From the NCBI GenBank assembly GCA_027490975.1, contig JAIXXA010000132.1:17253-81252 (forward strand): a stretch of DNA of 64,000 nucleotides, in the 5' to 3' direction. Within the stretch, counting starts at the first letter, position 1. Each line of letters begins with the position of its first letter. Under the pieces are notes generated by a model. It was not told the origin of the DNA and searched no databases. It was given only the letters and a program-made list of their open reading frames with translations. Of the stretch, positions 26,738 through 30,579 are shown piece by piece. The stretch comes from Rhodospirillaceae bacterium. Lineage in GTDB: Bacteria; Pseudomonadota; Alphaproteobacteria; CACIAM-22H2. Both the position numbers and the translations under genes were made by a program.

Positions 26738-28237
26738 ATGGCTGACCCCGCACTGCTGATCGGCAAAGGCGAAGACGCGGCATTGCTGCGCCTTGCCATG
26801 GCCAACCGCCACGGGCTGATTGCCGGCGCGACCGGAACCGGCAAGACCGTCACGCTGCGCGTAATGGCCGAGCTTTTGTCGGAAGCCGGCGTGCCCGTGT
26901 TCATGGCCGACATCAAAGGCGATCTCTCCGGCGTTGCGCAAGCGGGCGCGGCGAACGACAAATTCGCCGCACGCGCAGCCGAACTCGGCGCCGACGATTT
27001 CGAATTCGCGGCGAGCCCCGTGCTGTTCTGGGACGTGTTCGGCGAGGCGGGCCATCCGCTGCGCGCGACGATCTCGGAAATGGGCCCGCTGATGCTCGCG
27101 CGCCTGCTCGATCTCAACGAGATCCAGACCGGCGTGCTCAACATCGTGTTCAAGGCCGCCGACGACGAGGGGCTGCTGCTGCTCGATCTCAAGGATCTGC
27201 GCGCGATGCTGGCCCACGTGTCGCAGAACGCGGCCGACTACGCGGCCAAATACGGCAACGTCTCGCCGGCTTCGGTGGGGGCGATCCAGCGCGGGCTGCT
27301 CGCCCTCGAAACGCAAGGCGGCGACAAGTTCTTCGGCGAGCCCGCCGTCGCGATCGGCGACCTCTTGAGCGTCGACGGCAAAGGCCGCGGGGTCATCTCG
27401 ATCCTGGCGGCCGACCGGCTGATGCAGCGCCCGCTGCTCTACGCCACGTTCCTGCTGTGGCTGCTGTCCGAGCTCTACGAAAACCTGCCCGAGGCGGGCG
27501 ATCTTGCGAAGCCCAAGCTCGCCTTCTTTTTCGACGAGGCACACTTGCTGTTCGCCGATGCGCCCAAAGCCCTTGTCGAGCGCATCGAACTGGTGGTGCG
27601 ACTCATCCGCTCGAAGGGGGTCGGCGTCTATTTCTGCACGCAGAACGCGCTCGACCTGCCGGACAACGTGCTGGGCCAGCTCGGCAACCGCGTGCAGCAC
27701 GGGCTTCGCGCCTTCAGCCCGCGCGACCAGAAGACCCTGCGCGCGACGGCCGAAACCTTCCGCGCGCGCCCGGGCCTCGACACCGCCAAAGCATTGCAGG
27801 AACTCAGCGTCGGCGAAGCGATCATCTCGCTGCTCGACGAAAAGGGGTCGCCTGTGCCGGCGATGCGCGCGCGCATCTGCCCGCCGCGCACGCGGCTTGC
27901 ACCTTTGTCCGACGACGAGCGCCGGGCGACGATCGACCGCAGCGCTCTGTTCGGCAAATACGAAGACGCGACCGACCGCGTCTCGGCCTACGAACAGATC
28001 GCCCAGGCCAAAGAGGCCCAAGCCAAACCCGGCGGCGGCGGCGTCATCGGCGAAGCACTCGGGTCCATTCTGGGCGGCGGCACACGGCCGGGATCGGGGC
28101 CGGGCCGCGGGCGGCCGCAGAAATCGGTTGGCGAACAGGTTGCAGGCGCTATTGTGCGCTCGGTTGCAAGCTCGGTCGGCCGGCAGATCGGGACCGCAAT
28201 CGTGCGCGGCGTATTGGGTTCGATCCTCAAACGATGA
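26738..28237 (+). CDS. DUF853-family NTPase (HerA-like ATPase, YjgR-like)
   Basis: 499 aa. Walker A GATGTGKT, and LANRHGLIAGATGTGKTVTL...VPVFMADIKGDLSGVAQ closely matches the E. coli YjgR family. 28 nt downstream of gcrA. Confidence 0.85.
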   Translation: MADPALLIGKGEDAALLRLAMANRHGLIAGATGTGKTVTLRVMAELLSEAGVPVFMADIKGDLSGVAQAGAANDKFAARAAELGADDFEFAASPVLFWDVFGEAGHPLRATISEMGPLMLARLLDLNEIQTGVLNIVFKAADDEGLLLLDLKDLRAMLAHVSQNAADYAAKYGNVSPASVGAIQRGLLALETQGGDKFFGEPAVAIGDLLSVDGKGRGVISILAADRLMQRPLLYATFLLWLLSELYENLPEAGDLAKPKLAFFFDEAHLLFADAPKALVERIELVVRLIRSKGVGVYFCTQNALDLPDNVLGQLGNRVQHGLRAFSPRDQKTLRATAETFRARPGLDTAKALQELSVGEAIISLLDEKGSPVPAMRARICPPRTRLAPLSDDERRATIDRSALFGKYEDATDRVSAYEQIAQAKEAQAKPGGGGVIGEALGSILGGGTRPGSGPGRGRPQKSVGEQVAGAIVRSVASSVGRQIGTAIVRGVLGSILKR

Positions 28238-28767
28238 AACGTCTACTTCCGATTCTTCTGGCGGCAATCTTGTTTGCCGTCGCGGCACCCGCATTCGCGC
28301 AAACGGCGCCGCAGGGTGCTGTCGTGCGCGTCGGCCCCGACAACATGCCGACTTGCGCCGTTGCAGACGTGGCGTGCGCGGTGGCGCGCTTCTATGCCTG
28401 TGCGGCTGCCCAAGACGCCGCCTATTGCGCCGAACTCGGCCTTGCGGAAATTCCGAAACTCGTCGAAGCGCCGCAGCCGGTCGAGTTCGCGATCGAGCGC
28501 ACGAGCACCATCGCGGCCAAAGACGTCACCGACGATCTCAAACATCTGCCGTGGTTCCGCCCTGGTTTTCTGCTGGTCGAAGCGCAGGTGCGCCGCTGCC
28601 CTGCCGACGGCAGCTGCGAGGGCGAGGAATGGGACGATTGGCAGATCTATATTCGCCGCGACGAAGCGACGGCCCAGATCGTCTATTGGCGCGGCGACAG
28701 CGAGCCCGACCAACCGCCGGAAATTCCGGAGAGTTTTCGCGCCCCCGCCGCCGCCACGGCCGAATAA
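28234..28767 (+). CDS. Hypothetical secreted protein
   Basis: ATGA overlap with the DUF853 stop. Signal peptide (MKRLLPILLAAILFAVAAPAFA) and several Cys residues. No family recognised. Confidence 0.6.
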   Translation: MKRLLPILLAAILFAVAAPAFAQTAPQGAVVRVGPDNMPTCAVADVACAVARFYACAAAQDAAYCAELGLAEIPKLVEAPQPVEFAIERTSTIAAKDVTDDLKHLPWFRPGFLLVEAQVRRCPADGSCEGEEWDDWQIYIRRDEATAQIVYWRGDSEPDQPPEIPESFRAPAAATAE

Positions 28768-28956
28768 AACCAGCCGAATAAAAGCGGCAATTTGCAGAGG
28801 CTTGGCGTAAGTTTGCCGGACAAGCCGGGTCCGTTCTGTTGCCCGGCGGCCACAGTTCCGAGGTTCCATCGTGACCGACCCGAATAAGAGCGCCAAGGGC
28901 GCGTTGTGCTTGTGTCGAACGGCTGCTTTCGGCGGCCTCGCAAGCGGAGCGCTTTC

Positions 28957-29493
28957 GTGAACGACGAAACGCTCAAGCAACTGCGCGCCGAAATGGTCGA
29001 ATTGCTGCCCCGGCTGCGGCGCTTTGCGCGCGGGCTCGCCGGAGCGCCCGACCAGGCCGACGATCTGGTGCAGTCCGCGTGCGAACGCGCCCTGGCCCGG
29101 ATCGACCAGTACCAGCCGGGTACAAGGCTCGACAGCTGGATGTTCCGCATCGTCCAAACCATCTATCTGGACGACCGGCGAGCGGTCAAGGTGCGCACCG
29201 GCGAAGGCCGGATCGACGCAAGCTTGGTCGAAGACGAACTTGCTTTCGACGGCGGACGCGGCCTGGAAGCGCACATGACCTACGAAGCCGTGCGCGCCGC
29301 GATCGCCCAACTGCCCGAGGAGCAACGCGTGGTGCTGACATTCGTTTGCATCGAAGGCCAGAGCTACAAGGAAGCCGCAGCGTCGCTGGGGATTCCGATC
29401 GGCACGGTGATGAGCCGCCTTGCGCGCGCGCGTGCGGCCCTTGCCAAGCGCATGGGCGAAAGCGGCGCGTCGCTTGCGGCCCCTGCCGAATAG
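28957..29493 (+). CDS. ECF (sigma-70 family group IV) RNA polymerase sigma factor
   Basis: GTG at 28957 after GGAG. Region 2 (DDLVQSACERALARIDQY...WMFRIVQTIYLDDRR) and region 4 HTH (QRVVLTFVCIEGQSYKEAAASLGIPIGTVMSRLARAR). Confidence 0.8.
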   Translation: MNDETLKQLRAEMVELLPRLRRFARGLAGAPDQADDLVQSACERALARIDQYQPGTRLDSWMFRIVQTIYLDDRRAVKVRTGEGRIDASLVEDELAFDGGRGLEAHMTYEAVRAAIAQLPEEQRVVLTFVCIEGQSYKEAAASLGIPIGTVMSRLARARAALAKRMGESGASLAAPAE

Positions 29494-29514
29494 AAGAGAA
29501 GGAAGACCGCCGCC

Positions 29515-30579
29515 ATGAACCAAGCCCGTTTCGACGACGAAAGTCTGATGCGCTATGCCGACGGCACGGCCGCGTCCGACGAAGTGTCGGCGATCGAAGC
29601 GGCCATGCACGGCGACGCTTCGTTGGTGCGGCGCGTGGCGATGTTCCGCCAAACCGCGGCCTTGGCGCATGCCGCCATGAACGAAGTGCTGCTCGAGCCA
29701 GTGCCCCAGCGCCTCATCGACACGGTGCTGCGTGCGCCCGCCGCGCAGAAGACCGCGATCGACGACGAAACGCTGATGGCCTATGCCGACGGCGCCCTCG
29801 ATGCCGCGGCCGCAGCGCGCGTTGCAGCGCGTGCGGCCGGCGACCGCGACACGGCCGCGCGCATCGCGATGTTCCGGCAGACCGGCGCAATGGCGCGTGC
29901 GGCTTTCGCGCCGGTTCTCGACGAGCCGGTGCCGGCCCGCCTCGTGGCCGCGATCCAGAACACAAAAGCGCCAACCAATCTCGTCGCGTTCGCGCCCAAA
30001 TCCGCCGCACGCGCGAAGACGCGCACCTGGGCGGGGGCGGCGATCGCGGCCTCGCTGCTGCTGTTCGTGGGCCTGGGTGCCGGCGGCGTGTTCACGGGCA
30101 GGCTCGATCCGGTGCTGGGCGGCCTCCAGCTTGCGTCGAGCGACCGCTGGCTTGAGAACGTGGCGGGCTTCTACGCGGTGGCCGAAGCCACGCAAGCCAG
30201 CGAAGGCCGCTTGCTCGTGGATTTCACGGCCGCCGACGTGCCCGAACTCGGCAAGTGGTTCGGCGCCAAGCTCAACCGCAATCTCGCCATTCCCGATCTG
30301 GCGCCCCACGGCTTCGAGTTGCAGGGCGGGCGCATGGTAATCGTCGGCGGCCGGCCTGCGGCCCAGCTCATCTACACCAACAGCGCCAACGAGATGGTCG
30401 GCCTCGTGATCGCCTTCTCGCAATTCAGCGAACGCGGGGCGCGCAACGAAGCGCGCCAGGGCGTCAATCTCGTGCACTGGCATCGCGGCGGCTACGGCTA
30501 CGCCTTCGCCGGCCGCATCGCCCCCGACCGCCTCAAGGCGCTTGCCGACCAGGCCTGGAACGACCTCGAAGCGATTTGA
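29515..30579 (+). CDS. Anti-sigma factor with tandemly duplicated N-terminal cytoplasmic domain, one TM helix and a periplasmic domain
   Basis: Directly downstream of the ECF sigma. Two copies of a DDE[ST]LM.YADG...AMFRQT...VL.EPVP.RL module (aa 7-70 and 84-150), TM helix WAGAAIAASLLLFVGLGAG, then a periplasmic C-terminal domain. Confidence 0.75.
   Translation: MNQARFDDESLMRYADGTAASDEVSAIEAAMHGDASLVRRVAMFRQTAALAHAAMNEVLLEPVPQRLIDTVLRAPAAQKTAIDDETLMAYADGALDAAAAARVAARAAGDRDTAARIAMFRQTGAMARAAFAPVLDEPVPARLVAAIQNTKAPTNLVAFAPKSAARAKTRTWAGAAIAASLLLFVGLGAGGVFTGRLDPVLGGLQLASSDRWLENVAGFYAVAEATQASEGRLLVDFTAADVPELGKWFGAKLNRNLAIPDLAPHGFELQGGRMVIVGGRPAAQLIYTNSANEMVGLVIAFSQFSERGARNEARQGVNLVHWHRGGYGYAFAGRIAPDRLKALADQAWNDLEAI

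What the first reader, a model, noticed from the sequence alone, without database searches (positions are those of the whole stretch)
29515..30579. Anti-sigma factor with a tandem duplication of its sigma-binding N-terminal module
Two clearly homologous 65-70-aa segments (DDESLMRYADGTA...AMFRQTAALAHAAMNEVLLEPVPQRL and DDETLMAYADGALD...AMFRQTGAMARAAFAPVLDEPVPARL) precede the single TM helix. Typical RsdA/ChrR-like anti-sigmas have one such module. No Cys/His zinc ligands are present in either copy. A duplicated module could sequester two sigma molecules or a second ECF sigma encoded elsewhere.
Basis: seen in the sequence. Interest (0 to 1): 0.55.

Follow-up and report, generated by a model that had tools for sequence, protein, structure and literature searches.

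The report
Anti-sigma factor with doubled sigma-binding domain
A membrane-bound inhibitor of a stress-type sigma factor carries two complete copies of its sigma-binding domain instead of one, an arrangement kept under selection in one group of uncultured Rhodospirillales, found nowhere else among its detectable relatives, and apparently undescribed.

Summary
ORF 29515-30579 (354 aa) follows an ECF sigma gene (28957-29493). It encodes two gap-free 68-aa modules (aa 6-73 and 82-149, 46% identical, z=21 against shuffles), one TM helix and a periplasmic domain. Each module is a complete non-zinc class I anti-sigma domain of four helices, RseA/MucA-like at the front with a NepR-like 'EPVPxRL' helix 4.

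The duplication is lineage-specific. All 18 species-level genomes of a 'Tagaea-like' Rhodospirillales clade have two modules, and that clade has 100/100 bootstrap support from sigma plus periplasmic domain. The 13 syntenic sister loci have one module.

Both copies are equally constrained (dN/dS 0.34 and 0.35; linker 0.71). Both keep every family-invariant residue, including the known sigma4 and sigma2 contact determinants. AlphaFold folds each copy confidently but gives no fixed mutual orientation.

Among 1.84 billion representative proteins, 2,254 carry this module. Within the 150 best hits that could be inspected, only this clade has it twice. Nothing comparable turned up in the literature searched.

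How it works is inferred. Most likely there are two sigma docking sites per membrane anchor, so one inhibitor holds two sigma molecules. A clamp on one sigma, or a different partner for copy 1, cannot be excluded. This is a new variant of a known kind, of moderate interest.

The parts
28882..28905 (+). ECF-type promoter GAATAA-N14-CGTT, probably autoregulating the sigma/anti-sigma operon
   Evidence: Conserved upstream of the sigma gene in the aligned upstream regions of the related loci, in both the two-module and one-module clades. Only one match in the 64-kb window, 0.15 expected by chance.
28957..29493 (+). ECF sigma factor gene (178 aa, GTG start, TAG stop)
   Evidence: Pfam Sigma70_r4_2 3e-17, Sigma70_r2 6e-11, PhyR_sigma2 2e-13. 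NCBIfam sigma70-ECF 2e-22. Start context TCGTGAACGA conserved. 82-98% identical across two-module loci.
29499..29505 (+). Shine-Dalgarno AAGGAAG, 9 nt upstream of the anti-sigma ATG
   Evidence: Read directly from the sequence. Supports translation starting upstream of copy 1.
29515..30579 (+). Anti-sigma factor CDS (354 aa plus stop)
   Evidence: 100% identical protein present in public MAGs (P0001; cluster of 41 members).
29530..29733 (+). Anti-sigma domain copy 1 (aa 6-73), the N-terminal added copy. Predicted helices 8-16, 21-31, 35-60, 65-73
   Evidence: Module HMM 99.2 bits. AF2 pLDDT about 95 for helices 1-3. dN/dS 0.34. 18 invariant positions across the clade.
29734..29757 (+). Inter-module linker (aa 74-81), fast-evolving and variable in length
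   Evidence: dN/dS 0.71. Length is 3, 5, 7 or 8 aa in different members. Lower pLDDT.
29758..29961 (+). Anti-sigma domain copy 2 (aa 82-149), membrane-proximal and positionally equivalent to the single module of the sister clade. Predicted helices 84-91, 97-109, 111-135, 141-149
   Evidence: Module HMM 99.1 bits. Weak zf-HC2 and NepR hits. NCBIfam NF052375 anti-sigma 1e-7. MAFFT aligns single-module orthologs to this copy. dN/dS 0.35.
30028..30093 (+). Single transmembrane helix (aa 172-193)
   Evidence: Highest Kyte-Doolittle hydrophobicity window. 5 K/R and 0 D/E in the 21 residues before it, which places the N-terminus in the cytoplasm.
30127..30576 (+). Periplasmic alpha/beta sensor domain (aa 205-354) with an RseB/MucB-like predicted fold
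   Evidence: AF2 pLDDT mostly above 90. Foldseek hits to RseB 2v42 (E 5.7e-4) and MucB 6in9. No Pfam hit. The most constrained part of the protein, dN/dS 0.26.

Best explanation
The ORF encodes the single-pass membrane anti-sigma factor of the ECF sigma encoded 21 nt upstream. Both genes are transcribed from an autoregulated ECF promoter (GAATAA-N14-CGTT).

Shown here: its cytoplasmic part is two complete, separately folding, non-zinc class I anti-sigma domains in tandem. They arose from one internal duplication at the base of a Tagaea-like Rhodospirillales clade, and both have been kept under equal purifying selection.

Inferred: both domains can bind sigma, so each membrane anchor offers two docking sites and holds two molecules of the cognate sigma. 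Sigma and anti-sigma are co-transcribed. Doubling the sites per inhibitor would therefore give an excess of inhibitory capacity, meaning a tighter OFF state. It would also release two sigma molecules for each anti-sigma destroyed when the RseB-like periplasmic domain senses its signal.
For: Architecture (shown):
- The repeat is real: z = 21, and each copy hits the family module HMM at about 99 bits.
- All 18 species-level genomes of the clade have two modules, and all 13 sister loci have one.
- The loci are orthologous: sigma lies directly upstream, with a shared small secreted-protein gene and HerA_C ATPase, and the same promoter.
- The two-module clade is monophyletic at 100/100 bootstrap using only sigma plus the periplasmic domain.

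Both copies functional (shown):
- dN/dS is 0.34 and 0.35, against 0.71 for the linker.
- Both keep residues that are near-invariant in 145 single-module relatives: D11 145/145, P59 143/145, L62 144/145, plus E56, P57 and V58.
- The copy-specific residues R8, A23 and D64 also occur in 10-20% of ordinary single-module relatives.
- There is a Shine-Dalgarno ahead of copy 1.

Sigma-binding competence (inferred from established knowledge):
- Class I ASDs contact sigma4 through the helix-1 Asp of 'MDGE' and contact sigma2.1/2.2 through helix 4 (PMC7406223).
- The module aligns in that register with MucA, and both determinants are intact in both copies.
- One sigma has only one helix-4 groove and one sigma4 surface. 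Keeping a full set of determinants in each copy is therefore explained most simply by two sigma-type partners.

Independent units:
- The AF2 model of aa 1-165 has pLDDT 88 but pTM 0.47.
- The linker varies in length and evolves fast.

Single partner nearby: there is no second sigma or ASD gene in the window, nor within +/-6 kb in 30 of 31 loci.
Against:
- The linker is only 3 aa in 14 members. That may be too short to fit two whole sigma molecules side by side.
- The copies are only 46-47% identical, and each has clade-fixed private residues: R8, N51, E52 and D64 in copy 1, and R21 and A23 in copy 2. Their specificities may therefore differ.
- Conservation is mildly asymmetric. Late helix 3 and helix 4 are better conserved in copy 1, and helix 1 with the DGxL loop in copy 2. 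That would fit a split clamp on one sigma.
- The residues kept in both copies are invariant across the whole family, so they show competence but not partner identity.
- The dosage and ultrasensitivity argument is reasoning, not data.
Confidence: 0.45

Rival explanations
1. Bivalent clamp on one sigma (subfunctionalisation). The two domains share out the work on a single sigma molecule. For example, helix 4 of copy 1 holds sigma2 while the helix 1-3 bundle of copy 2 holds sigma4. This would give a 1:1 complex with higher avidity or altered release kinetics.
For: Conservation is mildly asymmetric by helix. Late helix 3 and helix 4 score 0.74 in copy 1 against 0.63-0.64 in copy 2. Helix 1 and the DGxL loop score 0.83 and 0.77 in copy 2 against 0.79 and 0.59 in copy 1. 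Each copy has lost one ancestral hallmark that the other keeps: A8->R and loss of L14 in copy 1, E23->A in copy 2. The short 3-8 aa linker keeps the domains close together.
Against: Both copies still keep both contact determinants, the helix-1 Asp and the EPVPxRL helix 4, at 97-100%. A split clamp would free half of them from selection. dN/dS is identical in the two copies. The 'lost' hallmarks are ordinary variants in single-module relatives. The asymmetry is small.
Confidence: 0.2
2. Neofunctionalised copy 1. Copy 2, which matches the ancestral module in position and in its helix-1 signature, inhibits the cognate sigma. Copy 1 has evolved to bind a different sigma-like partner encoded elsewhere, such as another ECF sigma or a PhyR-type sigma mimic. 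The protein would then be a hub linking two pathways.
For: Copy 1 has more clade-invariant private residues (R8, V36, N51, E52, D64; 18 invariant positions against 13 in copy 2). It is the added, membrane-distal copy. The second half of the module is NepR-like (PF18557 in 23/42 relatives, best E 2.7e-6; PDB 3t0y_B). Region 2 of the sigma resembles the PhyR sigma-like domain. NepR is known to switch between EcfG and PhyR (PMC6101532).
Against: No second sigma or sigma-like gene is in the 64-kb window or within +/-6 kb in 30 of 31 loci. The cognate sigma is unusually conserved in the two-module clade, at 89% mean identity. That fits extra constraint coming from two interfaces on the same partner. 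The private residues of copy 1 all occur in normal single-module anti-sigmas.
Confidence: 0.2
3. Intramolecular regulation. In the resting state the two domains pack on each other or compete with each other, as a built-in decoy or autoinhibitor. This would tune how much sigma-binding surface is exposed.
For: The domains are homologous helical bundles joined by a short linker. No data exclude transient contacts between them.
Against: AF2 gives no confident inter-module arrangement: pTM 0.47 and 0.49 despite pLDDT 82-88. The linker length is not conserved. No precedent was found.
Confidence: 0.07
4. Copy 1 is a non-functional relic, a mis-called start or an assembly artefact.
For: Pfam finds nothing in copy 1 when it is scanned alone.
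Against: Copy 1 dN/dS is 0.34, equal to copy 2. It has 18 invariant positions and pLDDT of about 95. It has its own Shine-Dalgarno. It is present in 18 species-level genomes, including chromosome-level MAG records, and in more than 50 distinct proteins. The copies are only 60% identical at the DNA level.
Confidence: 0.03

Closest known systems
Class I anti-sigma domain (ASDI) membrane anti-sigma factors: RseA/MucA, RsiW, RskA, ChrR
   Same: Each module has four predicted helices, matching the class I description of a three-helix bundle plus a fourth helix (definition from PMC6101532). The helix-1 'DG' Asp and the helix-4 hydrophobic stripe, which contact sigma4 and sigma2 in RseA, ChrR, RsiW and RskA (PMC7406223), are conserved. 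The gene is co-transcribed with an ECF sigma and encodes one TM helix and an extracytoplasmic sensor domain. The best structural matches of the cytoplasmic part are ChrR, MucA and RslA. Family-level Pfam hits are zf-HC2 in 40/42 and RseA_N in 10/42 relatives.
   Different: There are two complete ASDs in tandem instead of one. There is no zinc site, so this is not the ZAS subtype. Helix 1 is short, as in RseA. The helix 3-4 junction carries the NepR-like EPVPxRL motif. The periplasmic domain is not RseA_C but has an RseB-like predicted fold.
NepR, the class II two-helix anti-sigma of the alphaproteobacterial general stress response (EcfG/NepR/PhyR)
   Same: The 'AF..VL.EPVP..L' stretch of each module aligns with the conserved core of NepR (3t0y_B, 2lfw_B; PF18557 in 23/42 relatives). 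Region 2 of the partner sigma scores on the PhyR_sigma2 model. Both systems are alphaproteobacterial.
   Different: NepR is a soluble protein of about 60 aa with two helices, and it works by partner switching with PhyR. Here the motif is embedded in a four-helix ASD that is membrane-anchored and duplicated. No PhyR-like gene is nearby. The window's own NepR scores are below Pfam threshold (13-14 bits against 25.7).
Single-module orthologs in sister alphaproteobacterial MAGs (P0034-P0049; loci L019-L030)
   Same: They share synteny, promoter, sigma (67-73% identity), TM helix and periplasmic domain (46-51% identity overall).
   Different: They have one ASD, and proteins of 271-296 aa against 335-360 aa.
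Anti-sigma factors with 2:1 stoichiometry through dimerisation (SpoIIAB/RsbW type; from general knowledge)
   Same: Two inhibitor units take part in one regulatory complex.
   Different: Those are kinase-fold proteins in which a homodimer binds ONE sigma. Here two ASDs sit in one polypeptide and probably offer two sites. The fold and the sigma class are unrelated. The comparison rests on recalled knowledge and was not tested here.

Membership tests
Class I anti-sigma domain (ASDI) | [quoted passage not shown] | tested here: met
   AF2 DSSP gives helices 8-16, 21-31, 35-60, 65-73 for copy 1 and 84-91, 97-109, 111-135, 141-149 for copy 2. pLDDT is about 95 for helices 1-3 and lower for helix 4. 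13 of 16 Foldseek hits are ChrR, MucA or RslA, though E-values are only 0.8-9. This is a predicted structure, not a solved one, and coordinates were not inspected.
Class I anti-sigma domain (ASDI) | Sequence homology to ASDI profiles (zf-HC2 / RseA_N) | tested here: met
   At family level, zf-HC2 matches 40/42 relatives (best E 6.6e-7) and RseA_N matches 10/42 (best E 5e-5). Copy 2 alone is sub-threshold (zf-HC2 E 0.016; NF052375 1e-7; ChrR TIGR02451 0.002). Copy 1 alone has no Pfam hit but matches the family module HMM at 4e-30.
Class I anti-sigma domain (ASDI) | Helix-1 residue contacting sigma4 (RseA D11) and helix-4 stripe contacting sigma2.1/2.2 (PMC7406223) | tested here: met
   The Asp of 'ADG' is 100% conserved in both copies and in 145/145 relatives. 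E56, P57, V58, P59, R61 and L62 are conserved in both copies. The register with MucA comes from the HMMER alignment. These are contacts by homology, not by observation.
Class I anti-sigma domain (ASDI) | Encoded next to, and co-transcribed with, an ECF sigma factor | tested here: met
   The sigma gene ends 21 nt upstream on the same strand. The pairing recurs across the related loci, and the ECF promoter is conserved upstream.
Class I anti-sigma domain (ASDI) | Physically binds and inhibits its sigma | not testable with these tools
No experiment was possible.
Zinc-binding anti-sigma (ZAS) subtype | H-x3-C-x2-C zinc motif | tested here: not met
   There is no Cys in the whole protein. The only His residues in the N-terminal part are 32 and 52.
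NepR (class II ASD) | Short soluble two-helix protein reaching the PF18557 threshold | tested here: not met
   The NepR score is 13-14 bits against a cut-off of 25.7, and it covers only module positions about 47-63. The protein is 354 aa with a TM helix, and each module has four helices.
NepR (class II ASD) | Works with a PhyR anti-anti-sigma encoded nearby | tested here: not met
   No further sigma-like domain is found in any ORF of the 64-kb window. The rest of the genome was not searched.
RseA/MucA family | RseA_N cytoplasmic domain plus RseA_C periplasmic domain that binds RseB | tested here: not met
   The window protein has no RseA_N or RseA_C Pfam hit. Its periplasmic domain instead resembles RseB/MucB itself.

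The most novel reading that the evidence does not exclude
The two domains have different partners. Copy 2 holds the cognate ECF sigma, while the NepR-like copy 1 docks a second sigma-type protein encoded elsewhere, such as another ECF sigma or a PhyR-like sigma mimic. A single membrane sensor would then couple two transcriptional programmes, or would carry a built-in partner switch, which would be a new signalling logic for ECF systems.
Probability: 0.18. Interest if true: 0.7.

Novelty: new variant of a known kind. Interest (0 to 1): 0.5.

Why it matters
ECF sigma/anti-sigma pairs are generally treated as 1:1 switches, and are used that way as orthogonal parts in synthetic biology. A naturally selected anti-sigma with two complete sigma-binding domains would be a test case for how stoichiometry sets the threshold and gain of such a switch. 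Two sigma molecules might be held per anchor and released per proteolytic event. Alternatively it could show how one sensor is wired to two partners.

It also exposes a blind spot in current surveys. The largest ASDI classification kept only the best-scoring domain per protein (PMC7406223), so multi-ASD architectures have not been counted.

The single-module orthologs with identical genomic context provide a natural control for experiments.

Tried and rejected
1. I tried to model the sigma/anti-sigma complex with AF2.
   - No complex model was obtained.
2. Sequence searches of the PDB gave little.
   - The whole protein found nothing.
   - A two-sequence module profile found only noise.
   - A 42-sequence profile gave only marginal NepR and MucA hits.
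3. The module phylogeny could not order copy 1, copy 2 and the single-copy module.
   - The NJ tree puts copy 1 and copy 2 as sisters.
   - Bootstrap support is poor: copy 1 plus copy 2 15%, copy 2 monophyly 28%.
   - The claim of a single event rests instead on clade monophyly from independent regions and on synteny.
4. 'Complementary degeneration' is not strong evidence for a split clamp. The lost hallmarks are common variants in single-module relatives.
5. I looked for a second sigma nearby and found none, apart from a distant one in L021.
6. Five literature searches found no description of tandem class I ASDs (the 'ASD' acronym mostly returns cardiology). Three papers were also checked. 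PMC10733313 concerns RsbW-type domains and is not relevant.
7. P0180 and P0241 were flagged as two-stretch hits in the exhaustive search. They are false doubles, with second stretches under 7 bits.

Full report
**Observation**

- Residues 6-73 and 82-149 align without a gap at 46% identity.
- The local alignment score is 148, against 30.7 +/- 5.6 for 2000 shuffles, z = 21.
- A hydrophobic helix at aa 172-193 follows. Five K/R and no acidic residues precede it, which places the N-terminal half in the cytoplasm.
- The protein has no cysteine at all, so a zinc-binding HxxxCxxC site is impossible.
- The gene lies 21 nt downstream of a 178-aa ECF sigma gene at 28957-29493 (Sigma70_r2, Sigma70_r4_2).
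- It has its own Shine-Dalgarno, AAGGAAG, 9 nt before the ATG.

**What each module is**

Scanned alone, copy 2 gives only sub-threshold hits: zf-HC2 E 0.016, NepR 0.078, NCBIfam 'antisigma' 1e-7, ChrR subfamily 0.002. Copy 1 gives none. At family level the picture is clear.
- Among 42 diverse relatives of the module, 40 hit zf-HC2 (best E 6.6e-7) and 10 hit RseA_N (5e-5), both with the first half of the module. 23 hit NepR (2.7e-6) with the second half.
- A profile of these sequences aligns its front half with MucA (6in7). It aligns its 'AFxxVLxEPVPxRL' tail with NepR (3t0y_B, 2lfw_B), at marginal E-values.
- AlphaFold2 predicts four helices for each copy, with pLDDT of about 95 for helices 1-3 and lower values for helix 4.
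- Foldseek on the cytoplasmic model returns only 16 hits, and 13 of them are ChrR, MucA or RslA in complex with their sigmas. E-values are weak, 0.8-9.

Each module is therefore a complete, non-zinc class I ASD of the short-helix-1 RseA/MucA type, with a NepR-like helix 3-4 junction.

**Distribution and origin**
- A search of 5.8 billion proteins found two length classes. Proteins of 335-360 aa cover 99% of the query at 52-100% identity and all have two modules. Proteins of 271-296 aa cover 77% at 46-51% identity and have one module plus the same TM and C-terminal domain.
- In species-representative genomes, 18 loci, mostly labelled Tagaea sp. MAGs (Rhodospirillales), carry two modules. 13 sister loci carry one.
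- The loci are orthologous. The sigma gene is directly upstream wherever it could be checked, at 82-98% identity in the two-module clade and 67-73% in the one-module clade. A small secreted-protein gene and a HerA_C ATPase are syntenic. The same GAATAA-N14-CGTT ECF promoter precedes the sigma gene in the aligned loci, and it occurs once in the window.
- Using only sigma plus the periplasmic domain, so independently of the repeat, the two-module genomes form a clade with 100/100 bootstrap support. This points to one duplication event at the base of that clade.
- The 68-aa module tree agrees in topology but is not resolved by bootstrap.
- The copies are 60% identical at the DNA level and 56% at third codon positions, so the event is old.

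**Are both copies functional?**

Yes, by every available criterion.
- Across 19 two-module genes, dN/dS is 0.34 for copy 1 and 0.35 for copy 2. It is 0.71 for the linker, 0.50 for the juxtamembrane and TM part, and 0.26 for the periplasmic domain.
- Both copies keep the residues that are near-invariant in 145 single-module representatives: D11 145/145, P59 143/145, L62 144/145, plus E56, P57 and V58.
- According to the co-evolution and structure analysis of class I ASDs, sigma4 is contacted through one helix-1 residue, the Asp of RseA 'MDGE'. Sigma2.1/2.2 is contacted through helix 4 (PMC7406223). Both determinants are intact in both copies.
- Each copy has clade-fixed private residues: R8, N51, E52 and D64 in copy 1, and R21 and A23 in copy 2. 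R8, A23 and D64 each occur in 10-20% of ordinary single-module relatives, so they do not indicate loss of function.

**Rarity**
- A module profile scored against 1.84 billion representative proteins found 2,254 carriers.
- Among the 150 best, only two representatives, both from this clade, are true doubles at 219 and 185 bits. The next hit scores 79 bits.
- Two other 'two-stretch' hits are false.
- Doubles whose two modules together score below about 60 bits would not have been listed.
- The largest ASDI survey kept only the best envelope per protein and never mentions tandem or duplicated domains.
- Five literature searches found no description of tandem class I ASDs.

**Mechanism**

Shown: there are two autonomous ASDs. 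The AF2 model of aa 1-165 has pLDDT 88 but pTM 0.47, so the two modules have no defined mutual orientation. The linker is fast-evolving and 3-8 aa long.

Inferred: a sigma factor offers one helix-4 groove and one sigma4 surface. Retention of a full set of determinants in each copy is therefore explained most simply by two sigma-type partners per anti-sigma. No second sigma is encoded in the window or in 30 of 31 neighbourhoods. The cognate sigma is very conserved in this clade, at 89% mean identity, with only six fixed core differences from the sister clade. On that basis I favour two molecules of the same sigma per anchor, at confidence about 0.45. With co-transcription from an autoregulated promoter, this would double inhibitory capacity per transcript and double the sigma released per anti-sigma destroyed.

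Rivals:
- A bivalent clamp on one sigma, confidence 0.2. A mild helix-wise asymmetry and the short linkers hint at it.
- A different partner for copy 1, confidence 0.2. The NepR-like motif and the larger number of private invariant residues in copy 1 are compatible with it.
- Intramolecular regulation, confidence 0.07.
- A relic or artefact, confidence 0.03, which is effectively excluded.

**Comparison with known systems and verdict**

The protein works like, and by the tested criteria is, a class I ASD anti-sigma factor of the non-ZAS type. It is not a NepR and not an RseA family member (see the membership table). What is new is the tandem, selectively maintained ASD, which makes this a new variant of a known kind. 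For a specialist it is a moderate surprise. It comes with a clean natural control, the single-module orthologs in identical context, and an obvious set of decisive experiments. Interest 0.5.

Noticed in passing
window 30127-30576 (anti-sigma aa 205-354): The periplasmic domain has no Pfam family, but its confident AF2 model matches RseB/MucB (2v42 E 5.7e-4, about 91 aligned columns, 13% identity). An RseA-like anti-sigma domain and an RseB-like sensor fold would then sit in one polypeptide. It is the most constrained part of the protein, with dN/dS 0.26.
   Followed up: partly
window 29650-29733 and 29878-29961 (module positions about 40-68 of each copy): The 'AFxxVLxEPVPxRL' stretch of this class I ASD subfamily matches the core of NepR (PF18557 in 23/42 relatives; PDB 3t0y_B and 2lfw_B). 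Region 2 of the partner sigma scores on PhyR_sigma2. This hints at an evolutionary link between this membrane anti-sigma family and the class II NepR/EcfG system.
   Followed up: partly
window 28837-28854: An imperfect palindrome, TGTTGC-N6-GCCACA, lies about 28 nt upstream of the -35 element. The TGTGGC...GCCACA form is conserved across the two-module loci and is much less clear in the one-module loci. It may be a binding site for an additional regulator.
   Followed up: no
window 28234-28767 (+): A small Cys-rich secreted protein (signal peptide MKRLLPILLAAILFAVAAPAFA, no Pfam family) is encoded immediately upstream of the sigma gene. It is syntenic in both the two-module and one-module clades. 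It may belong to the same signalling system.
   Followed up: partly
window 26738-28237 (+): A HerA_C-type (DUF853) ATPase gene (E 2.5e-213) lies upstream and is syntenic in most two-module loci and in some one-module loci. No link to the sigma system is known.
   Followed up: no
window 28243-30483 (-): A 746-aa ORF runs antisense across the sigma and anti-sigma genes. The purifying selection seen in the + frame and the high G+C content suggest it is a spurious antisense ORF. It was not examined further.
   Followed up: no
loci L001-L018 (record titles): Submitter taxon labels for the two-module MAGs are inconsistent: Tagaea, Telmatospirillum, Azospirillum, Asaia bogorensis, and Magnetospirillum for P0133. 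The sigma and anti-sigma sequences nevertheless form one tight clade. All 18 are MAGs, and no cultured carrier was identified.
   Followed up: no
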